A stretch of DNA of 63,936 bases, counting the filler, from Atractiella rhizophila (lineage: Eukaryota), in NCBI GenBank assembly GCA_021432655.1. It is 3 parts of 3 records of this genome, joined end to end, with 100 filler letters (N's around TTAATTAATTAA, not from the genome) between each part and the next. Parts side by side here need not be neighbours in the genome. Positions count along the whole stretch, not along the records: positions 49,808 to 63,936 come from MU271821.1; 2 more parts are not named here. One strand, given 5' to 3'. Of this stretch, positions 13,930 to 59,816 are shown piece after piece. The number at the start of each line of letters is the position of its first letter. Within the stretch, counting starts at the first letter, position 1. The position numbers were made by a program, and so were the translations under genes. Under the pieces are notes generated by a model. That model ran no database searches and was not told where the DNA came from. It saw only the letters and a list, made by a program, of their open reading frames with translations.

Positions 13930-15503
13930 GCTGATGGTTTTCTCTCTTGGATTTGAGAGCACGGCCAGGTATGGGATGATGGATTAAATATAAATGATTA
14001 GAAAACCAAGCGATGTAGAACAAGGCCCATTGTTGTTGGACAAGCTTTGTTGAGATTGCAGATTTAGTTTGAGTTGGTTAGCGAAAATCAATGCTGCAAG
14101 GTTTGAGCTAAACCGAATCAATGGTAGTCTGCAATATTTGGTTTCAACAAGGCGACAGGGGGGGTTCAGTAGGGACGAGAGAGGGACGACTAGGACGGGC
14201 TTGGACACGCCTCGGAAACTCGATACACGATACATAGTGACTAGCATGCATGGCAACTTGGTTTGGTGTTAAAAATGGCACAGGGGTGGATGAAAGAACA
14301 AACAACCAGACAAGGATCTTCGTCAGAAACTTTCGCGCTGGGTTCTTTCGAACCACATGCAACGACGTTCATCATAGAAGTAATTAGAAAAGAACAGGTC
14401 AGGTCAAGAGTAGTCCGAATCGAGTTATGCAACGAGACGCCGTAGACGCCTACAAAATGCACACCGCGAATTGCATTGAAGCGACCGTCATACAACGTTC
14501 GCGGCTCCCATGTGCTTCCCAACTAAGAGTTTTGGGTCGATAACGAAGGAAGGATCGATCTGAAGAAAGTAGAGAGGATTTCTATCCTAGGCCTTCACAT
14601 CTTCGGAATACCTCATCTGCCAATACCTGCCAGACCGTTAGAGAAGATAGAAAAGAGCAAAAAACTCACCGTGTACACGGTGCTCTGTGCTGCAGCAGCC
14701 CACTAGGTTTGCTACCGACCAGTCTATCGGTCTAACAGAGCTAACAACCTTCCTTCATGATCATCACCACCTTCCTTCCTTTCCAACCCTCACAACAAGG
14801 AATTTCTGATAGCACACCCCATCGCTTTCACGATGCGTCCATCAAGAACATCGTAGCTCAACCTCAAAAAGGAAGAGGAGGGCGACACAAACACTCGGAC
14901 CTTCCCCCTCGCTAGAGCTTTTGAACTGCAATCCTCCTAGAAAGGATCGACGAAGTAAGCTTTGAGTCATTCCAACCCAAAACTTGGATGGATTACCCTG
15001 TGGGTAGCGAGGAATCGCAGCCTTTGAACTGAACCTGCACCAAGGTGATGCGGTGGCACTCATACGTGCTGCAGCCGACCCATTATCCCTGAGACCAGGC
15101 CAGTCGCACCTTTTCACCTTGGATGGAAAAGTTCGACCCGAACTTCTCCCCTCGAAGAAATTGTTCATCAACTTCTTCTGGTTCTTGGTCTCTCGGGTTT
15201 ACCCGATCATGATCGTGCATGACCATGGTCGCAGGGGGAAGGGAGGAGAGCCGAACAAATACAAACATGTTCCACGTGACTTTCTGCTCCGCAGAATTTC
15301 GCTAGCTGGCACTTTTATGAAGCTGCTTCGAGATGGCACTGGTTCGGGAGGCGAATACGTATGCACTGAATCATATTGGGGTCTAAGCGGCCATACAGTA
15401 GAGCGGTATCGAAACATTCTGAGAAATCACAACAGGTAGAAACACGAATCAAAACCATTCACAAGAAGGCAAAGGCATAGAGCATGAGATAAGCAAGAGG
15501 CGA

Positions 15504-22839: not shown

Positions 22840-24842
22840 GCGAGAGGGTCGTCTGTTGCCGGGGAGTAGCTGACCACCTCTTAGGTTCCTACCAAGTTAA
22901 CCTAGGAGTTGCAGAAGGGGGAACGTGCGAAACGGGAGGTTAGGAGAATGGCCTTCTGCCGACCCTTCAGAGCGTCTAGGCGCTTTAAGAGAAAGAATTG
23001 GCGCGACAGTTCTCCCTGAACCTCACCCGTCGTCTAATGCAACTCTGGAGGCTGCCACAAAACACCTAACTTTTGTCCCTAACCTCGCCGTTGCTCCGTC
23101 TAAACGATCCTATGACACTACGTACAGGTGCGCCTCACCCCAAAACCAAGGGAGTCGAATTGCATCCGAAGTTTCCTGTCAAGTTGCAGGGTAAGTTGCA
23201 GCTGTAGAAGGAGCGCCTTAGAGAGCGGCAAGAAGTGCGAAATGCAAAGTCATATCGGTCTCCAGTAGCTTCCTAGCAGAACAAGTGTCTAAGTTACTTG
23301 AGTCAGCTAGAAAAGAGAAGCGTAAGAGGGGGCGAAAGCAATCGCTTCCAGAAGGCATTGCGTCACGAGGAGGACCGTGTTGTAGGACTCCAGCTGGAGT
23401 CTCACAACGTACAGGGTCCCCTCCTCTTAATGTAACGTCTACGGGAGAGTTCCTTGGCCCTCCTCCACCACGCTACAATGGAGGGATTGAACTAGTAATG
23501 TGGAAAACTTGGGGGGTGGCTTCTCAACTCCCCCCTCCTCTTCATTACCTAGAAAACCCGGAGAGCCACCCTTCCGTCGGAGTGGCTTTCCGGACCAGCG
23601 CGCTTNNNNNNNNNNNNNNNNNNNNNNNNNNNNNNNNNNNNNNNNNNNNNNNNNNNNNNNNNNNNNNNNNNNNNNNNNNNNNNNNNNNNNNNNNNNNNNN
23701 NNNNNNNNNNNNNNNNNNNNNNNNNNNNNNNNNNNNNNNNNNNNNNNNNNNNNNNNNNNNNNNNNNNNNNNNNNNNNNNNNNNNNNNNNNNNNNNNNNNN
23801 NNNNNNNNNNNNNNNNNNNNNNNNNNNNNNNNNNNNNNNNNNNNNNNNNNNNNNNNNNNNNNNNNNNNNNNNNNNNNNNNNNNNNNNNNNNNNNNNNNNN
23901 NNNNNNNNNNNNNNNNNNNNNNNNNNNNNNNNNNNNNNNNNNNNNNNNNNNNNNNNNNNNNNNNNNNNNNNNNNNNNNNNNNNNNNNNNNNNNNNNNNNN
24001 NNNNNNNNNNNNNNNNNNNNNNNNNNNNNNNNNNNNNNNNNNNNNNNNNNNNNNNNNNNNNNNNNNNNNNNNNNNNNNNNNNNNNNNNNNNNNNNNNNNN
24101 NNNNNNNNNNNNNNNNNNNNNNNNNNNNNNNNNNNNNNNNNNNNNNNAAAGTGCTGTTCGACTTCAACGACGACGTTGGTGGTTGCGAGCAGCTGGACGG
24201 AAGGAGGGATCCGATCGTGACCTCCTTTTGTAGCTGCGCAAGGGCCCCACGTCTTGTTAACAGTGCACCCAGCACTTTCAACAAAAACGACTTACGCAAA
24301 AGGAAACGCGGTTTGTCAGAATGCTCGCCGTCGAGCTCCTGATCGAAACTGCATTTCCTAAGCTGACCGTCAGCTATGACCAGGTCGACCTGGGGACTCT
24401 GCTTACCTAGCCCGGTAGGTAGCGTAGAGGGAGACGACTCCATGGACGCGAAGCGCCAGCAGTGGTGTTGTGAGCGAACGTCCCGGACGCAGCACGTACA
24501 ACTGGTGTAATCCTTGCATTAAACTCGAAATATGAAATTACGAAAAGCTGGCAGCAAAACAAGCAAAAAACTGGTAAAAACAGGTTTAAACTTAAAATTC
24601 ATTTATAACACCCGTTGTTCCCCGTCTGACCCGTCATGGAAGCACAAGAGGGTTGACGGACGGGTAGCACCCGTCCGTTTATACCGTCCGTCGTCAAAAA
24701 ATCAAAGTTGTGACGGTGACGGGACGCGTGGCCAAAAATGCCGTCCGTCCCGACCCCGTCACCCGTCTTGACAGTGCCGGTGCAAAGCCCTAGACCCGAG
24801 AGCAGGACCCTTTTGAGGCGTCCACTGGAACTCCTCCTCAAG

Positions 24843-24942
24843 NNNNNNNNNNNNNNNNNNNNNNNNNNNNNNNNNNNNNNNNNNNNTTAATTAATTAANN
24901 NNNNNNNNNNNNNNNNNNNNNNNNNNNNNNNNNNNNNNNNNN
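24843..24942. other. Artificial scaffold-joining spacer
   Basis: 100 nt of N with a central TTAATTAATTAA (stop in all six frames) at 24887-24898. Confidence 0.97.
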
Positions 24943-49707: not shown

Positions 49708-49807
49708 NNNNNNNNNNNNNNNNNNNNNNNNNNNNNNNNNNNNNNNNNNNNTTAATTAATTAANNNNNNNNNNNNNNNNNNNNNNNNNNNNNNNNNNNNN
49801 NNNNNNN
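49708..49807. other. Artificial scaffold-joining spacer
   Basis: 100 nt of N with TTAATTAATTAA at 49752-49763. Confidence 0.97.
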
Positions 49808-52230: not shown

Positions 52231-53389
52231 TCAAGTTGACATTTCCTTATCTTCTTCCTCTTCCTTCTCAATCGCCACATTCTTCTCAGATTTGTTCCTT
52301 GTGTTCTCCCACATCTTACCCACCACTTCTCCCCTCAACCACATCTCCTCCGGAGTCCACCACCAAGCCAAGAACCCAAAGATGGTCACAGCCCCGAAGA
52401 TGACACAGGCGAAGTTGAACGTTTCCGCAGTGACAGGGAAGGTGTAGGGTGAGAGAATCACACACATCAAAAACACTGTCGTTCCTCGTGTGAGCCCACA
52501 ACATCAAAGTGGGTAGGAAAGGGAAAGGAGGACTCACAATTCCACACCGCTGCAATTACGCAGAAAGGCCTCGACCAACGTCCCAGGGACCACTTTCCTC
52601 TGCTGAAGTTGTGTGGGGTAAAAATAAGCCTACAAAAACGTCAATCAATATTGAATTGTTCTCGCTGAAGCATACCTGAGGATAGGAATGAGTGCATAGG
52701 CTGCGATTGTAGGGACGGCACCGGCAGAAACCAAGGAGGTGAAGGCGACCTGCGAGGGCAGGGACGTGCAGAGCAAGATGGCGGAAACCTATTCGAGTCG
52801 TAGTAAGGGTCGAGAGTGGAGACGATATAAGGAAAGAAGCGCACAGCCCAAATAAAGTACACGCTATTGCTCGGATTCCCATTCTTATCGACCTTCCCGA
52901 TCCACTTGCTTCCAGGAAGCACTCCATCTCTCGCAACAGCATAGATGAGTCGACTGGCAGCTACGACGGCAACTGAGGAATTCTGTCCCAGTGTCCCAAT
53001 CGAGGAGTCAGCAATCATGTAGGAACGCAGAGAAGTGAGAACAGGACGAACGATGAGCAGTCCAAGACTCGCAACCACCGTCATTACCACCTGTCCTCCC
53101 TTTCCTAAGGCGAGTTCGTAAATGAGGACGAACGGTTGTGGCGCAGCGAGAGAGAAGAGTGTATCGAGACTGGGGGAACAGAAGAGGAACAAGATCAAGA
53201 CGGGCTGTATGCATAAACAAATACGTCAAACATGCATTGACGGTAGTCTGGAGGGGTGAGACGCACAAACGCTCCAAGCGCCGATGCGACGCAACCCCAA
53301 AACAAACCTCTCGCGGCCACAAGTCCTGCGTTTTGCGTCTCCTCGGCAATGTGTCCGGATGCGTCGAATCCAGTGAGGACACCGCTCGT
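52231..53389 (-). CDS. 3' half of the APC amino-acid/thiamine permease (second copy, native C-terminus; 5' part lost in the gap)
   Basis: Matches 56210-57264 (offset 3875) but continues to the native end WLRGEVVGK...KEMST*. Confidence 0.85.
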
Positions 53390-54250
53390 NNNNNNNNNNN
53401 NNNNNNNNNNNNNNNNNNNNNNNNNNNNNNNNNNNNNNNNNNNNNNNNNNNNNNNNNNNNNNNNNNNNNNNNNNNNNNNNNNNNNNNNNNNNNNNNNNNN
53501 NNNNNNNNNNNNNNNNNNNNNNNNNNNNNNNNNNNNNNNNNNNNNNNNNNNNNNNNNNNNNNNNNNNNNNNNNNNNNNNNNNNNNNNNNNNNNNNNNNNN
53601 NNNNNNNNNNNNNNNNNNNNNNNNNNNNNNNNNNNNNNNNNNNNNNNNNNNNNNNNNNNNNNNNNNNNNNNNNNNNNNNNNNNNNNNNNNNNNNNNNNNN
53701 NNNNNNNNNNNNNNNNNNNNNNNNNNNNNNNNNNNNNNNNNNNNNNNNNNNNNNNNNNNNNNNNNNNNNNNNNNNNNNNNNNNNNNNNNNNNNNNNNNNN
53801 NNNNNNNNNNNNNNNNNNNNNNNNNNNNNNNNNNNNNNNNNNNNNNNNNNNNNNNNNNNNNNNNNNNNNNNNNNNNNNNNNNNNNNNNNNNNNNNNNNNN
53901 NNNNNNNNNNNNNNNNNNNNNNNNNNNNNNNNNNNNNNNNNNNNNNNNNNNNNNNNNNNNNNNNNNNNNNNNNNNNNNNNNNNNNNNNNNNNNNNNNNNN
54001 NNNNNNNNNNNNNNNNNNNNNNNNNNNNNNNNNNNNNNNNNNNNNNNNNNNNNNNNNNNNNNNNNNNNNNNNNNNNNNNNNNNNNNNNNNNNNNNNNNNN
54101 NNNNNNNNNNNNNNNNNNNNNNNNNNNNNNNNNNNNNNNNNNNNNNNNNNNNNNNNNNNNNNNNNNNNNNNNNNNNNNNNNNNNNNNNNNNNNNNNNNNN
54201 NNNNNNNNNNNNNNNNNNNNNNNNNNNNNNNNNNNNNNNNNNNNNNNNNN

Positions 54251-56209
54251 GCATTGCTGACATCAAATTGTGCCAACGACCATCGTTGCGATGCGGCGAG
54301 GGAAAGAACAGTACGAACAGAGGACATACGGACAGTAGGAGCATATGTCTCCTTGAAATCTTGTCCTGCCACCTGTCTGTCGCCTCTCGCAACGAGCCTC
54401 GCTTTATATTTGACGATATTGCCATCTAAGTCCCTTTTTATCAGTAAAACCCACTTACATCCTATCGCGCGCTTTCCATGCGGCAATTCAACCAAATCAT
54501 CTTCCCAAGTCCCCATGGCACAAAGAGCAGCCATCTCCGCCTGAATCGCAGTCCACCACTCATCCGCATGAGGCCCACCTAACGCCTGTTTAAACGTAGG
54601 CTCATCTAAATTACCGTTCCACCCTACTCCTGTCGCGAATACTTCCCATTTCCTTACACCAATCCTATTATCTGTGAGCGCTGATTGGTTCGAGGCCCTC
54701 AAAGCCGCATTCATCTCCCTTGCAGCAACTGATGGATTGAAATCTCGCAAGCCTGGCTGGAAGTGTGCATTGAGATGGAAAGCTAATGGGTGTCTCGATT
54801 TAGACAGAGGTTGTAGTGTATGTGCTTGTGGGTGTTGAAGACCAGATCTATCCCCTAGAATGTTGTCAGGTTGTGGAAGCCCACTGTTCAAAGCCCGATA
54901 ATCGATCCTAGGGATATCCCTCCTGGGTCGCGAGGGTAATGGGTAAGGATTAGGAGAGTGGTTCGGAACCCTCTTACGAGGGATGCGAGTCCGTGGGAGG
55001 GGTGGTTGCTCGTCACTACTGGCTTTTGGTGTTTCTCGGCCATCGTCATCGTCATGTCCGCTCGTCTGCCCTGCAGGCGATGAGTCCATCGGTGGAGAGA
55101 ACGGTCTAACTGATGGGTCGGATGTAGGTTGCATCCTCGCCATTTCCATGGGAGGTGGTATTATCGCATTCGTATCTGGTATGCGGACAGGAACATTGTC
55201 AGCAAGGTAATCAAAATCCGAGGGCATGAACTCGTTAAGCGACCAGCTGGTCAATTTTACCGTCTCCTCCTCCTGCCTATCCTTGTAAAATTGGTCTTCA
55301 AACCACTTTACCTCCTTCGATTCCACAAAGCGCCTCTGTTGTGGGACCCAGAATAACCACCCCTTCTTCCCTTCCAAGTACCCAACGAAGTACCCCAAGA
55401 TCCCTCTTGCATGAAGCTTCGAGATCTGTTTTTCTTTCGGAACATGTATAACTGCAAGACATCCAAAAGTGCGGAGGTGCGATACGTCCGGCGTTTTCCC
55501 AGTCCATGATGATTCCGGACATTTCCACGACCCATGCGAGAACGTCGGAAGACGATTAAGCGTGTAGACTGCAAACTGCACTGCTTTCTCCCAAAAGGAT
55601 AAAGGTAGACCGGATTCAAACAAAATCGTTCGTGCAACATCAAACAAAGTATACCATCGCCTCTCAATGAAACCCATCTGATTGTGAATATAAGGAATTG
55701 AGGTCTCATGAGATAGACCATTTTGACGAATAAAAGATTTGAATTGGACAGATTGAAACTCTCCGCCATTGTCGCTTCGGACAATCTTCACTTTGACGTT
55801 ATAACGCCGCTCAGTCTCCAAGATCCAGCTCTTCAGAACCATCGCAGCCTCAGACTTAGCTCGGAGGGGAATCCACCATAGTTTGGCTGTGGATTCCTCG
55901 ATGATCCCCAGACCATAACGCACACCGGATTGCATCGAAGCAACCGGGGCAGGTCCCCATAAGTCACAGTCTATCCGTTCACCTATTGTGTACGAAGTCG
56001 ACGTAGTGATTTCCCGATTCGGACGGGCTTTCGACTTCCCAGCCGCACATGATGTGCATGGATTTAACTTGGTCGAATTGCAATCAAAGCCCGTCACCCA
56101 CTTCCCAGTACACAATTCCCTCCATCTCTTCGACCCTATATGGCCGAAACGTGCGTGCCAGGTCTGAGCAGTCGTAGCTGCATAAGCCGAGATGGGAATG
56201 TGAGTTGAC
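54251..56209 (-). mobile_element. Ty1/Copia pol fragment: integrase and N-terminal reverse transcriptase
   Basis: HHCC (WHARFGH...CTSC), DDE (DLWGP, RSDNGGEF, IERR), GKKGW, and RT motifs IGCKWV...YKARLVARG...ETYAP...QFDVSN. The integrase-before-RT order defines Copia. Confidence 0.96.
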
Positions 56210-58835
56210 TCAACCACATCTCCTCCGGAGTCCACCACCAAGCCAAGAACCCAAAGATGGTCACAGCCCCGAAGATGACACAGGCGAAGTTGAACGTTTC
56301 CGCAGTGACAGGGAAGGTGTAGGGTGAGAGAATCACACACATCAAAAACACTGTCGTTCCTCGTGTGAGCCCACAACATCAAAGTGGGTAGGAAAGGGAA
56401 AGGAGGACTCACAATTCCACACCGCTGCAATTACGCAGAAAGGCCTCGACCAACGTCCCAGGGACCACTTTCCTCTGCTGAAGTTGTGTGGGGTAAAAAT
56501 AAGCCTACAAAAACGTCAATCAATATTGAATTGTTCTCGCTGAAGCATACCTGAGGATAGGAATGAGTGCATAGGCTGCGATTGTAGGGACGGCACCGGC
56601 AGAAACCAAGGAGGTGAAGGCGACCTGCGAGGGCAGGGACGTGCAGAGCAAGATGGCGGAAACCTATTCGAGTCGTAGTAAGGGTCGAGAGTGGAGACGA
56701 TATAAGGAAAGAAGCGCACAGCCCAAATAAAGTACACGCTATTGCTCGGATTCCCATTCTTATCGACCTTCCCGATCCACTTGCTTCCAGGAAGCACTCC
56801 ATCTCTCGCAACAGCATAGATGAGTCGACTGGCAGCTACGACGGCAACTGAGGAATTCTGTCCCAGTGTCCCAATCGAGGAGTCAGCAATCATGTAGGAA
56901 CGCAGAGAAGTGAGAACAGGACGAACGATGAGCAGTCCAAGACTCGCAACCACCGTCATTACCACCTGTCCTCCCTTTCCTAAGGCGAGTTCGTAAATGA
57001 GGACGAACGGTTGTGGCGCAGCGAGAGAGAAGAGTGTATCGAGACTGGGGGAACAGAAGAGGAACAAGATCAAGACGGGCTGTATGCATAAACAAATACG
57101 TCAAACATGCATTGACGGTAGTCTGGAGGGGTGAGACGCACAAACGCTCCAAGCGCCGATGCGACGCAACCCCAAAACAAACCTCTCGCGGCCACAAGTC
57201 CTGCGTTTTGCGTCTCCTCGGCAATGTGTCCGGATGCGTCGAATCCAGTGAGGACACCGCTCGTAGACAAGAAGGCCAGTATCCAATTCCACGCGTCCCC
57301 TGCTCCAGTGCCATTGAACGATTTCGTAAATACCCACTTAGCGCTCTGGAATCCATAAGTTTTGGATACACCGATTGGAAGCCAGATGACGGTGAGGAGG
57401 AAGTCGATCACGATGATTGAGATGGAAGCGCGAAAAATATGAGACATCGTCTTTGCTATATCACCCAGAGGTAGATCAATATGACAATTCCAAAAATTGC
57501 TAGGGGTGAATGAAAGGAATGACATACGGGATATGACGTTCGAGAGGCAAACTACAGCCAAAGCGACCTCACTCACTGCCCACGCTACGGCTCGAAACTT
57601 GACATTGTCCGTCGTGATTCCTCCGGGGAAGTCGTTCTCGAACACCACCATCTCAGTCAGCAAGAAATTGGCAATTCCCAAAGTGTTGGAAGCGACAAAG
57701 GAGGTCCAAGCTGTAGTGGTCCAGAATGCGCTGTTACGTCAACCAAAACCTCATCAATCGCAATAATGAAGAAAAGTTGGCTGAAAACATACACAATAAA
57801 TCCAGCAAGACGCGCCCACTTTGGTCCGGCCGCTTCCTGTCCTCCCATAATATATGAGTTTAAAAATGCGCAAAAGGGGAGACACACGGCAGCCCAGATA
57901 TAGATGCTACCACTGAGTGGGAGCGCAGAACAGATCTCAGCGAGGACAGCAGCAGTAATGGTCATGAACACCATAGTGACCAAGAAGCTAGACCTACACG
58001 ATAACGTCAGCCAGGTGGACAAGCAATGAAGAGAAGAACGAACCAAAGAGCAGCTGGTCCACCAGAGTAGATCCCTACAGAGTAGAGGATGCGAACGCCT
58101 TATTTTCGTTCATCAACACTAGTAATGCGCCAGATACAAAGAGGAACCGACCTCCAACGAAGTACCTACTCGCATTTCGTCAGCTGTAGATTAGAAGAGG
58201 AAGAGATACGCACAAGCTTCCAAAACTCGCGGCAAAATTTTCAAACTGTTTCCACGTCCTATGAAGCGTCTATCCTCCCAAACAATCGAGAAATACGCAA
58301 ACCAGTCCGTCAACTCATGCCATCAACCAGAGAGAAGCAAAAGGGAGAAAAACGGACCTGTTGATACCCAAACTGCCTCTACCATCATGAAGGTAGGGAT
58401 TAGTTGTCACTTCTCCATAACGTAGGAGCAGAAAGGGGGGGTTAAGGGGGAAACAAAGATGGCAAATCCCTTCGCTGGTATTGTCCAGATCAGGTTCAAA
58501 CGGTATCATCTCAGCACTTCTTCCCCTGCCTCCATCCGTGCATCCACATCCACAACAGCGTAGATGAGGCATGCTGATGAGAGGCCAGGGAGAGAAGGCA
58601 CCCGCAGCCATTTTCCCACTCGCAGAGAGGGAGAAGGTGCAAGTAAAAGAGAAGGACGTTACCAATGAGACCAGTTCCGTTCATACTAGCCAATTTCGCC
58701 ATCTCATCTCCATCCTTTCCCCATCCCCTCCCTCCTTCCCACCGTTGAAAAAACTGGACGAAGACGGTGTACAAGAATCGCTTCATCATCTGTCCCACTA
58801 CTCGCACTAGATTTTGGTGTGTTTGTGTCTGACAT
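56136..58835 (-). CDS. APC-family permease, probable thiamine transporter (Thi9-like); last ~34 codons replaced by Copia-derived sequence
   Basis: Spliced MSDTNTPK...FGYQQ...ENFAASF...LAEICSALPLSGSIYIWAA...TGFDASGHIAEETQNA...ASRLIYAVARDGVLPGS...FPVTAETFNFA. The substrate is inferred from the intronic TPP riboswitch. Confidence 0.88.
58459..58611 (-). promoter_or_regulatory. TPP (thiamine pyrophosphate) riboswitch in intron 1 (58772-58379) of the permease
   Basis: Minus strand reads ATGGCT-GCGGGTGC-[long P3 stem]-GCTGAGATGATACCGTTTGAACCTGATCTGGACAATACCAGCGAAGGGA-TTTGCCAT. P1 (ATGGC/GCCAT), P2 (GCGG/CCGT), P4 and P5 (CTGG/CCAG) all pair. Confidence 0.96.
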
Positions 58836-59816
58836 TCTGTTTCTTTGAGTATTTGACTGAAACGTAGAGGGTGTGGAAGGGTGAGTGCAGGGAAGCACAA
58901 CGTTCGAAATTTGAGCTCATCCAGACCGATCACCCAAAAACCATCACGTGCACTCATTGTGCTTAGCATGCTGAATGTTTCTTTGACAAACCAATATTAT
59001 AATCCCCCTCTCTTTTCCAGTTTAGCAGTTTAGCGGTGATTTATGAGCAATTCTGGTTGCTTCATGTTCAGGCGACGGCTCCAGTATGATCCCGTTACGG
59101 TCTGATCCTGGCCTCACCTCAACCGGTACAAAAATGAATACAAGGAGGAGCATCCTTGTCTTTTCTCCCTTCCCAAGCCACTACTAGTACTGAACTTTTG
59201 CAATTCATCCAAATTCATCCTCATTTACCAGCTTTGATATGAACTTATCCCTCTACTCCCGTCAATATGGCTGAACTTTCCAATTAGAGTGTGCTGGTCT
59301 GTGTTACGTACGAGTTACTGAATTTTTCCCATAGAAATCGCTGACTTCACGATCAGGAGCTGCTCGCAGCTAGGTTCATCGGCGATGGCGAGTCCTTGGT
59401 CATGTTATTATATGTTATTATATGTGTGACGCTGTGTTTGAAGATAGCTATTGACAATATCTTTATGACCGCTGTCATTATTTGCATCGATGAACTGTAT
59501 TTTCCGCTGTTTGTCATTGGCAGAAAAATCCAACATCTGTGGTAATACATCGCAAGCCACCAAACGTGGCAGGTGATCAACTTGCTTCTGCTGTCAGCCA
59601 AGCAGATCATCAGGACACACTCCTACGCAGGCAATACTGAATCAACATCAACATTGCAAACATTCAGTACTTTATCACGAAAGGGTATCAATAATTTCCC
59701 GTATCCTCACAAACAAAAACCTAATGCTCACAGTCCATCGCGCATACTTCACAATTGCCAACCCATCCAACGCAACCCTCATGGCCTCAGATCAAGGAGC
59801 CGACGTACCTTTCAGC

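What the first reader, a model, noticed from the sequence alone, without database searches (positions are those of the whole stretch)
58379..58772. TPP riboswitch in the first coding intron of an APC permease, with an extended P3 and candidate splice-control pairings
Seen: a complete TPP aptamer (58611-58459) with a ~90-nt P3 stem in a 394-nt intron. Intron retention or use of downstream GT donors hits a stop at 58704. A purine tract near the donor (GGGAAGGAGGGAGGGG) is complementary to the P3 5' strand (CCTTCTCTCCC), and CTTCG/GTCCAG just after the donor are complementary to CGAAG/CTGGAC of P4-P5. Established: fungal TPP riboswitches regulate alternative splicing, including via long-range pairing, and S. 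pombe Thi9 is an APC-family thiamine transporter. Inference: this gene imports thiamine or a precursor and is switched off by TPP.
Basis: partly seen in the sequence, partly recalled or inferred. Interest (0 to 1): 0.8.

Follow-up and report, generated by a model that had tools for sequence, protein, structure and literature searches.

The report
Thiamine riboswitch inside a transporter intron
A genuine thiamine-pyrophosphate-sensing RNA sits in the first intron of a fungal transporter gene and most likely turns the gene off by diverting splicing, but this kind of switch is already well documented in basidiomycete fungi.

Summary
The core observation holds. On the minus strand, a complete TPP aptamer (58611-58459) lies in the 394-nt first coding intron (58772-58379) of an APC permease. 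It has P1-P5 and an 86-nt P3, and intron retention meets a TGA at 58706-58704. Rfam RF00059 scores 51.6 bits (E 3e-9), just under the 54.3 gathering score. The window nevertheless keeps all 27 invariant core positions of 18 related aptamers, and 39 related metagenome loci have an aptamer-like motif in the same intron.

New here: public RNA contigs show a second donor (G|GTAACG, 58662) spliced to the same acceptor, plus intron-retained forms. Both carry the stop. The productive S1 junction was not seen.

A different pairing is a modest outlier: 58706-58694 with the 3' strand of P1, like the alpha-alpha' pairing of N. crassa NCU01977. It is not conserved across relatives.

The class is in print as TPPsw-AA / THI9-type, with "Type III" regulation. 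Verdict: a real, ordinary new member of a known kind.

The parts
58773..58835 (-). Exon 1 of the permease (ATG 58835; 21 codons MSDTNTPKSSASSGTDDEAIL)
   Evidence: Translation. The N-terminal motif spacing matches relatives P0002, P0005 and P0024. No RNA contig covers 58808-58911.
58379..58772 (-). Intron 1 (394 nt, phase 0), the riboswitch intron. The gene's other cleanly mapped introns are 46-88 nt.
   Evidence: The acceptor is confirmed by a joint. The S1 donor is inferred from homology only.
58767..58772 (-). S1, the distal (productive) donor CTT|GTACAC. It lacks the +5 G that 8 of 8 cleanly mapped constitutive donors have.
   Evidence: It is unpaired in both modelled states. This junction was not seen in RNA contigs.
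58699..58743 (-).
   Evidence: In the intron MFE it pairs with the pyrimidine tract 58458-58424, not with P3. That pairing is largely compositional.
58704..58706 (-). In-frame TGA, reached after 43 codons if the intron 5' part is kept
58694..58706 (-). Candidate alpha element UGAGAUGGCGAAA, complementary to the 3' strand of P1. It lies between S1 and S2.
   Evidence: dG is -15.5 kcal/mol. As good or better in 7/500, 0/300 with an 18-nt target and 11-17/1000 block shuffles. The X12 allele U>C at 58701 weakens it to -11.1.
58657..58662 (-). S2, the proximal (non-productive) donor TTG|GTAACG. It keeps 110 nt of intron, giving a frameshift plus the TGA.
   Evidence: Joint 58663->58378 in run X12 (1 contig, depth 61.8). 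Frames.
58459..58611 (-). TPP aptamer. P1 58611-58607/58463-58459; P2 58605-58602/58503-58500; P3 58599-58514; J3/2 CUGAGA 58514-58509; P4 58494-58492/58471-58469; P5 58488-58485/58478-58475.
   Evidence: All 27 invariant columns are shared with 18 related aptamers.
58455..58466 (-). 3' strand of P1 plus flanking bases (alpha'), the shared partner of the P1 5' strand and of alpha
58424..58458 (-). Pyrimidine tract between the aptamer and the branch region. It is the partner of the purine tract in the intron MFE.
58399..58403 (-). Likely branch-point motif CUAAU, about 20 nt upstream of the acceptor
   Evidence: Sequence. The consensus is recalled, not tested.
58358..58378 (-). Exon 2, a 21-nt mini-exon (RQFGYQQ) whose position is conserved in relatives
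   Evidence: Joints. The mini-exon motif is found in 59 of 80 related loci.
56209..58357 (-). Remaining exons and introns of the APC permease up to the assembly break at 56209
   Evidence: Pfam AA_permease_2, E 6e-11. There are 12 splice joints in X12. Relatives are listed.
52231..52333 (-). True 3' end of the coding sequence (…WWWTPEEMWL|RGEVVGKMWEN…MST*, stop at 52233-52231). Transcripts reach it directly from 56209.
   Evidence: Loose ends in X12 and X1. The pattern matches at 52321-52333..

Best explanation
This is a functional TPP riboswitch of the basidiomycete amino-acid-permease group (TPPsw-AA, THI9-type). It lies in the first coding intron of a Thi9-like APC permease and controls which 5' splice site is used.

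Splicing from the distal donor S1 (58772) to the acceptor (58379) removes the whole intron and gives the full permease. Splicing from the proximal donor S2 (58662), or not splicing at all, keeps a TGA (58706-58704). S2 use also adds a frameshift. Those transcripts encode a 43-residue peptide and are probably degraded.

By analogy with studied fungal TPP switches, TPP binding closes P1-P5 and shifts the balance from S1 to S2 or retention. High thiamine therefore shuts off an importer of thiamine or a precursor.

The most likely coupling, which is inferred, runs as follows. Without TPP, the 3' strand of P1 pairs with the alpha segment 58706-58694. This extends a purine/pyrimidine helix that brings S1 next to the acceptor and loops out S2 and the aptamer. 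With TPP, P1 takes that strand back.

Shown here: the aptamer, the intron, the stop, use of S2 and retention in RNA, and conservation of the aptamer in this intron.
Inferred: TPP dependence, its direction, the role of alpha, and the substrate.
For: - Aptamer: RF00059 at 51.6 bits, E 3.2e-9. The MFE gives P1-P5, z -3.4. All 27 invariant core columns are shared with 18 relatives.
- The relatives' consensus fold recovers P1, P2, the P3 base, P4 and P5, with compensatory changes in 14 of 24 pairs.
- Conserved position: among 80 related metagenome loci, 39 have an aptamer-like motif upstream of the same mini-exon. 13 with at least 400 nt upstream have none, and 28 are uninformative. L018 reaches 65.6 bits in Rfam.
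- Host gene: Pfam AA_permease_2. The closest proteins are Microbotryomycetes permeases at 66-79% identity. Neolecta proteins that their source names 'thiamine transporter thi9' are in the same hit list at 63-64%.
- RNA: run X12 shows 12 splice joints along the gene. These include 58663->58378 (S2). One contig is colinear over 58358-58668 (intron retained, next intron spliced). Two allelic contigs are colinear across S1, 58671-58784.
- Isoform coding. Both regulated donors lack the +5 G present in 8 of 8 constitutive donors.
- Alpha and the flank helix. The alpha duplex (-15.5) is stronger than P1 alone (-7.7).
- Literature: this gene class and its 'Type III' layout (intron of 200-400 nt, two donors, a stop between them) are described in PMC5882874 (passages and section 7), PMC5997356 (passages) and PMC11683625 (passages). 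The alpha-alpha' model is in PMC3597705 (abstract and Discussion).
Against: - The Rfam score is below the gathering score, and there is no hit in the whole-window gathering search.
- The productive S1-to-acceptor junction was not seen in any of the 4 runs laid, and no contig covers the start codon. These are assembled contigs, which drop rare forms.
- Nothing here shows a response to thiamine.
- Alpha complementarity is only a modest outlier (about 0.015), and it was one of five targets tried.
- Alpha is not conserved. Of 23 relatives tested, only the closely related L010-group loci (7 loci, 3-11/300) show a comparable signal. L007 gives 73/300 and the others are not significant.
- The flank helix is an outlier only in the window (z -3.6). 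L043 gives -1.9 and the 15 others lie within noise. Without alpha it is compositional (30-57/400).
- One X12 allele changes the central U of alpha.
Confidence: 0.8

Rival explanations
1. NMT1-type masking without any alpha element. In the TPP-free fold, an aptamer strand (J3/2-P2', GAUGAUACCG, 58510-58501) pairs with the S2 donor (UUGGUAACGUC, 58664-58655) and hides it, so S1 is used. TPP folds the aptamer, frees S2 and diverts splicing. This can coexist with the alpha model.
For: The free-state MFE of the intron pairs exactly these segments, and S1 is unpaired in both states. Of 10 GU sites in the 5' flank, S2 has the strongest predicted duplex with the aptamer's 3' part, -14.3 against -12.3 or weaker. 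Masking of a proximal donor by aptamer nucleotides is the established NMT1/THI4 mechanism (PMC3597705 Discussion).
Against: Complementarity of the flank to this core is not above chance (206/500). The modelled P(paired) of S2 changes little between states, 0.72 against 0.57. In NMT1 the masking strand is P4-P5, and here P4-P5 shows less complementarity to the flank than shuffles do (476/500).
Confidence: 0.2
2. The purine tract near the donor pairs with the P3 5' strand, and CUUCG/GUCCAG just after S1 pairs with CGAAG/CUGGAC of P4-P5. These pairings would couple aptamer folding to S1 use.
For: The complementary words exist in the sequence. The purine/P3 duplex is -23.2 kcal/mol, with 37/500 whole-flank shuffles as good.
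Against: With local composition kept, 277-313 of 1000 shuffles pair as well with P3. The nearest relative L007 has no purine tract. An X12 allele has G>C in the tract (58730) and G>U in GUCCAG (58754). In the intron MFE the tract pairs with the downstream pyrimidine tract instead.
Confidence: 0.06
3. The aptamer is a decaying relic or no longer coupled to splicing. On this view, S2 use and retention are constitutive inefficiency of a long intron with two weak donors, independent of thiamine.
For: No thiamine data exist here. S1 was not seen in RNA. Both donors are weak. Donovan et al. saw some second-donor use in both conditions in Candida DUR31 (PMC5997356 passage).
Against: All 27 invariant core positions are intact. 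The two X12 differences in the 311-nt aptamer-side contig fall outside the core, in a P3 bulge and outside the aptamer. The aptamer is kept in this intron in 39 related loci.
Confidence: 0.07

Closest known systems
TPPsw-AA / THI9-group riboswitches of Basidiomycota (Mukherjee 2018, PMC5882874; Donovan 2018, PMC5997356, citing Moldovan 2018; ACS Omega 2024, PMC11683625)
   Same: A TPP aptamer associated with an amino-acid-permease-family (Thi9-like) transporter gene. It sits in an internal intron of 200-400 nt with two donors, an in-frame stop between them and the acceptor just downstream ('Type III'). The P3 is long and variable and depresses Rfam scores.
   Different: Nothing essential. This particular locus adds transcript evidence for the second donor and for retention. 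I could not see Moldovan 2018 or the supplementary species lists, so I cannot say whether this very gene is already catalogued.
Candida parapsilosis DUR31 riboswitch (Donovan et al. 2018, PMC5997356; passages read)
   Same: Two 5' donors, then the riboswitch, then a single acceptor, all inside the coding region. A premature stop lies between the donors. Unspliced and second-donor products are non-productive.
   Different: The host gene belongs to a different transporter family (SSF/urea-type). Thiamin dependence was shown by experiment there and is not shown here.
Neurospora crassa NCU01977 riboswitch, alpha-alpha' long-distance pairing (Li & Breaker 2013, PMC3597705)
   Same: A segment between S1 and S2 is complementary to the 3' strand of P1. 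Pairing would bring S1 and the acceptor together and loop out the proximal donor and the aptamer.
   Different: That intron is about 650-900 nt with about 530 nt separation, in a urea-type transporter, and alpha is conserved and tested by mutation. Here the separation is about 230 nt, alpha is not conserved in relatives and nothing has been tested.
Neurospora crassa NMT1/THI4 riboswitches (summarised in PMC3597705 and PMC5882874)
   Same: An OFF switch acting through the choice between a distal productive and a proximal non-productive 5' splice site upstream of the aptamer.
   Different: Those sit in 5'-UTR introns and act through uORFs. Their P4-P5 strand masks the proximal donor, and here P4-P5 shows no such complementarity.

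Membership tests
TPP riboswitch aptamer (Rfam RF00059) | Score at or above Rfam's gathering score (a curated detection cut-off, not a structural feature) | tested here: not met
   51.6 bits against 54.3, E 3.2e-9 in a 601-nt search. No hit in the whole-window gathering search. cmscan aligns P1-P3 inside the long P3, so the true architecture is penalised. The 2024 survey reports that P3 size hampers detection in fungi. Of 7 motif-positive loci among the 13 searched, cmscan found only L018.
TPP riboswitch aptamer (Rfam RF00059) | Helices P1, P2, P3, P4 and P5 in the canonical order around a three-way junction | tested here: met
   MFE of 58611-58459 and of 58625-58440. The same helices appear in the consensus fold of 19 relatives, with compensatory changes in 14 of 24 pairs.
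TPP riboswitch aptamer (Rfam RF00059) | Conserved ligand-contacting sequence blocks (GGGUGC, GCUGAGA, ACC, AACCUGA, GCGnAGGGA) | tested here: met
   The window keeps all 27 columns that are invariant in the alignment with 18 relatives. Which bases contact TPP is recalled, not tested.
TPP riboswitch aptamer (Rfam RF00059) | Binds TPP | not testable with these tools
   Needs in-line probing or ITC.
TPPsw-AA / THI9-type riboswitch gene group | The host gene is an APC/amino-acid-permease-family transporter related to Thi9 | tested here: met
   Pfam PF13520, E 6e-11. 301 relatives at E<=0.001 among 443 candidates. The top hits are 66-79% identical basidiomycete permeases. Neolecta 'thi9'-named proteins are at 63-64%; these are the sources' own names. 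S. pombe Thi9 itself was not compared.
TPPsw-AA / THI9-type riboswitch gene group | The aptamer sits at the orthologous place in relatives | tested here: met
   39 of 80 related loci have an aptamer-like motif upstream of the same FGYxQ mini-exon, at a median of 92 nt. Sequences are shown.
TPPsw-AA / THI9-type riboswitch gene group | The protein transports thiamine or a precursor | not testable with these tools
   Inference from riboswitch association and from Thi9 (Vogl 2008, seen only as a reference entry).
'Type III' splicing control (Mukherjee et al. 2018) | Internal intron of 200-400 nt, two alternative donors, an in-frame stop between them, the aptamer downstream and the acceptor just before the next exon | tested here: met
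   394 nt. S1 at 58772 (from homology), S2 at 58662 (RNA joint), TGA at 58706-58704, acceptor at 58379.
'Type III' splicing control (Mukherjee et al. 2018) | TPP shifts splicing from S1 to S2 | not testable with these tools
   Only one RNA-type data set covers the intron, and its growth condition is unknown.
'Type II' long-distance alpha-alpha' control (Li & Breaker 2013) | An alpha element between S1 and S2 complementary to the 3' strand of P1 | tested here: inconclusive
   Present in the window at 7/500, 0/300 and 11-17/1000. It was one of five targets tried, and one allele weakens it.
'Type II' long-distance alpha-alpha' control (Li & Breaker 2013) | Alpha conserved among homologous introns, in a long intron (650-900 nt) of a urea-type transporter | tested here: not met
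   Only the L010 group shows a comparable signal; L007 and the other groups do not. The intron is 394 nt and the host is an APC permease.

The most novel reading that the evidence does not exclude
This permease riboswitch uses an NCU01977-like long-range mechanism that the surveys assign only to urea-type transporters. Without TPP, the 3' strand of P1 pairs with alpha (58706-58694) on top of a purine/pyrimidine helix that clamps S1 to the acceptor. TPP releases alpha and hands splicing to S2. This would be a lineage-specific hybrid of 'Type II' and 'Type III' control, showing that expression platforms are re-invented around a fixed aptamer.
Probability: 0.3. Interest if true: 0.45.

Novelty: new member of a known kind. 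Interest (0 to 1): 0.3.

Why it matters
It confirms that a sequence-only reader can spot a eukaryotic riboswitch that Rfam's default threshold misses because of a long P3.

It also gives transcript-level evidence, from public contigs, for the second donor and for intron retention that the printed 'Type III' model predicts for this basidiomycete permease group.

It does not change what is known. TPP riboswitches in Thi9-like permease introns are described as the commonest TPP riboswitch group in Basidiomycota. The only point that reaches beyond the literature is the possible alpha-alpha'-type pairing, which is weakly supported.

Tried and rejected
- Whole-genome search: no genome is held for this window.
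- Earlier scan notes: nothing by place or by words.
I dropped it and used the alignment instead.
- Rfam on 13 related loci at E<=0.1 found only L018. It missed the other 6 loci among those 13 that the motif search and inspection show to carry aptamers. Rfam absence is therefore not evidence here.
- My first strict motif found 0 of 80 loci. It was too strict and was replaced.
- The S1-to-acceptor junction is not listed in any of the 4 runs laid, and 58808-59015 has no cover. These are contigs only, so this says nothing about absence.
- Runs X1, X2 and X5 hold only small parts of the gene and none of the intron.
- Masking of S2 by J3/2-P2': not above chance (206/500).
- Flank helix in relatives: not significant outside the window.
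- SNP density, aptamer side against 5' flank: 2/311 against 3/114, Fisher p = 0.12.
- An eIF5B neighbour, suggested by fused gene models in relatives: not found downstream. Only an ABC_tran fragment was found.
- One search used boundaries that were off by one base. It was superseded.
Full report
**What is there**

On the minus strand a gene starts at ATG 58835.
- Exon 1 (58835-58773) encodes MSDTNTPKSSASSGTDDEAIL.
- A 394-nt intron runs from GT at 58772 to AG at 58380-58379.
- Exon 2 is a 21-nt mini-exon (58378-58358, RQFGYQQ).
- Exon 3 (58269-58213) continues TLHRTWKQFENFAASFGSL.

The junction gives DDEAIL-RQFGYQQ. This has the same spacing as DDEALLARFGYKQ in relative P0005 and similar N-termini in P0002 and P0024. 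The larger exons match Pfam AA_permease_2 at E 6e-11.

A search with one 104-residue exon found 301 relatives at E<=0.001 among 443 candidates. The best are Microbotryomycetes permeases (Rhodotorula, Sporobolomyces and others) at 66-79% identity. Two Neolecta proteins that their source names 'thiamine transporter thi9' are at 63-64%. The organism is therefore a basidiomycete of Pucciniomycotina affinity, and none of its own proteins is in that collection.

**The aptamer**

Rfam at gathering score finds no TPP element in the whole window. A permissive search of 58300-58900 finds RF00059 at 58557-58450 with 51.6 bits (gathering 54.3) and E 3.2e-9. Its alignment squeezes P1-P3 into the distal part of a long hairpin.

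| Element | 5' strand | 3' strand |
|---|---|---|
| P1 (AUGGC/GCCAU) | 58611-58607 | 58463-58459 |
| P2 (GCGG/CCGU) | 58605-58602 | 58503-58500 |
| P3 (two-part, 34 bp) | 58599-58514 (whole element) | |
| J3/2 (CUGAGA) | 58514-58509 | |
| P4 | 58494-58492 | 58471-58469 |
| P5 | 58488-58485 | 58478-58475 |

**Relatives**

A scan of metagenome contigs with an alignment of the exon returned 80 related loci at 49-69% identity. Of these, 59 show the same FGYxQ/LGYKQ mini-exon flanked by introns.

With a motif broadened after inspection, the 80 loci split as follows:
- 39 carry an aptamer-like motif upstream of that mini-exon, at a median of 92 nt (about 100 nt in the window).
- 13 with at least 400 nt of upstream sequence do not.
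- 7 have too little upstream sequence.
- 21 show no mini-exon motif.

Rfam itself reported only L018 (65.6 bits) among 13 loci searched. At least six others of those 13 have clear aptamers, so Rfam is insensitive here.

The consensus fold of 19 related aptamers recovers P1, P2, the P3 base, P4 and P5. Compensatory changes occur in 14 of 24 pairs. When the window is added to 18 of them, all 27 invariant columns stay invariant.

P3 ranges from 11 nt (L018) to about 199 nt (L007) and is mostly 41-100 nt. The window's P3 is ordinary.

**RNA evidence**

One public run (X12) holds 46% of the sampled words of the gene. Its contigs behave as cDNA, with 12 joints along the gene. Nine have clean GT..AG ends on the minus strand, and three are offset by a 14-nt micro-exon or by alignment slack.

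The intron-relevant observations in X12 are:
- One joint links 58663 to 58378 (1 contig, depth 61.8).
- A 319-nt contig (depth 20.7) is colinear over 58358-58668. The intron is retained through the aptamer while the next intron is already spliced.
- Two allelic 114-nt contigs (depths 33.7 and 57.2) are colinear over 58671-58784, across the S1 donor.

No joint from 58773 to 58378 is listed in any of the four runs, and nothing covers 58808-59015. Because these are assembled contigs, this shows presence of the non-productive forms, not absence of the productive one.

The S2 form keeps 110 nt (a frameshift) and the TGA at 58706-58704, 43 codons from the ATG. The two in-frame ATGs downstream stop after 10 and 8 codons.

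All 8 cleanly mapped constitutive donors have G at +5. The four others, read by eye from the same output, do too. S1 (GTACAC) and S2 (GTAACG) do not. The other introns are 46-88 nt.

**The proposed pairings**

Each candidate was tested against shuffles of the 5' flank.

| Candidate pairing | Observed | Shuffles as good or better |
|---|---|---|
| Purine tract with P3 5' strand (reader) | -23.2 | 37/500 whole-flank; 277-313/1000 block shuffles of 10-20 nt |
| Alpha 58706-58694 (UGAGAUGGCGAAA) with P1 3' strand | -15.5; P1 alone is -7.7 | 7/500; 0/300 with 18-nt target; 11-17/1000 block |
| 5' flank with whole 3' tail, 58466-58379 (long imperfect helix) | -68.9 against about -48 ± 5.5 | 0/500 and 1/500; 0-3 of 400 block |
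| Same helix without alpha | -51.7 | 30-57/400 |

The nearest relative with a full flank, L007, has the same layout: exon 1 …YGDEEQL|GTTAGT, an in-frame TGA ten codons into the intron, and exon 2 ASFGYKQ. It has no purine tract.

Alpha lies between S1 and S2. Without alpha the flank helix is mostly purine/pyrimidine composition.

Across relatives, only the L010 group shows a comparable alpha-type signal (3-11/300). There the exon-1 end AUAUCAG and GGCAUC bracket the donor and pair with CUGAUAU and GAUGCU next to P1. L007 (73/300) and the other groups do not show it. The flank helix is an outlier only in the window, at z -3.6; L043 gives -1.9 and 15 others lie within noise.

One X12 allele carries U>C in the middle of alpha, which weakens the duplex to -11.1.

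In the free-state MFE the S2 donor pairs with GAUGAUACCG (58510-58501) of the aptamer, and S1 is unpaired in both states. That complementarity is not above chance (206/500), although S2 is the best-matched of 10 GU sites.

**Mechanism**

Shown here: an intact aptamer conserved in this intron, a weak distal donor needed for the open frame, a weak proximal donor that is really used, retention, and a stop that disables both alternative products.

Inferred: TPP favours S2 or retention and so represses the transporter.

This matches the printed models:
- The 'Type III' model of Mukherjee et al. is an intron of 200-400 nt with two donors and a stop between them. They called it not yet observed experimentally (section 7).
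- The Candida DUR31 switch was shown by experiment to have the same layout, and thiamin increases the unspliced RNA there (passages).

For the coupling step I favour an alpha-alpha' competition for the 3' strand of P1, as in NCU01977 (Discussion), at about 0.3. Masking of S2 by an aptamer strand is the alternative, and the two can coexist.

**Comparison with what is known**

- Mukherjee et al. 2018 report TPP-riboswitch-regulated amino-acid-transporter genes as widespread in Basidiomycota.
- Donovan et al. 2018 state that Thi9 orthologs in Basidiomycetes contain riboswitches. They cite Moldovan et al. 2018, which I did not see.
- The 2024 survey names TPPsw-AA the most prevalent group in Basidiomycota and stresses the P3 detection problem.

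This locus is therefore a new member of a known kind. I could not view the supplementary species tables, so it may even be listed already. Searches that held 'Thi9' and 'riboswitch' (4 papers) and 'TPP riboswitch' with 'Basidiomycota' (4 papers) listed no paper whose title or abstract start is an experimental study of this permease group; I opened only some of them.

**Verdict**

The special features claimed, an extended P3 and specific pairings, are ordinary or unsupported. Interest 0.3.

Noticed in passing
window 52334-57264: The 3' part of the permease is present twice as an exact 1056-nt copy (52334-53389 = 56209-57264). The copies flank an 861-N run (53390-54250) and a copia-like retroelement piece (54251-56208; Pfam rve, gag_pre-integrs, SH3_retrovirus). 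Transcripts in runs X12 and X1 go straight from 56209 to 52333. The element and duplication are therefore an assembly join or belong to one haplotype only.
   Followed up: partly
window 14399-14929 (-): Nuclear RNase P RNA (RF00009, 58.7 bits, E 2.8e-14) with a very large insertion in one arm. It is the only Rfam hit at gathering score in the window.
   Followed up: no
window 24843-24942 and 49708-49807; also 23606-24147: Two odd pairs of 44-N runs, each pair separated by 12 bases, and one 542-N run. These are masked or gap stretches of unknown origin.
   Followed up: no
L003, L004, L006, L008, L009, L029 (upstream of the LGYKQ mini-exon): These relatives have UUGAGA instead of CUGAGA. In the three I inspected (L004, L008, L009), GGUAUC replaces GGGUGC and P2 is GCCG/CGGC instead of GCGG/CCGC. 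These are compensated changes of the P3-closing pair and of P2, that is, natural covariation in the aptamer.
   Followed up: partly
proteins P0001, P0006, P0014, P0055: Several deposited gene models of relatives start at an internal MA(G/S)FG… and lack the N-terminal exons. The likely reason is that the riboswitch intron and the 21-nt mini-exon defeat gene prediction.
   Followed up: no
proteins P0073-P0109: Many Agaricomycete models fuse this permease with eIF5B domains (1500-1760 aa), which suggests a conserved neighbour gene merged by annotation. No eIF5B lies next to the gene in this window.
   Followed up: partly
window 58098-58213 (-): A 14-nt micro-exon (GTACTTCGTTGGAG) between two short introns. 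It is supported by contigs of X12 and X1 and is needed to restore …LYFVGGVRILYSVGIYSGG….
   Followed up: partly
window 58671-58784 in run X12: Two allelic contigs (depths 33.7 and 57.2) differ at 58701, 58730 and 58754. The source therefore carries two haplotypes or strains of this intron.
   Followed up: partly
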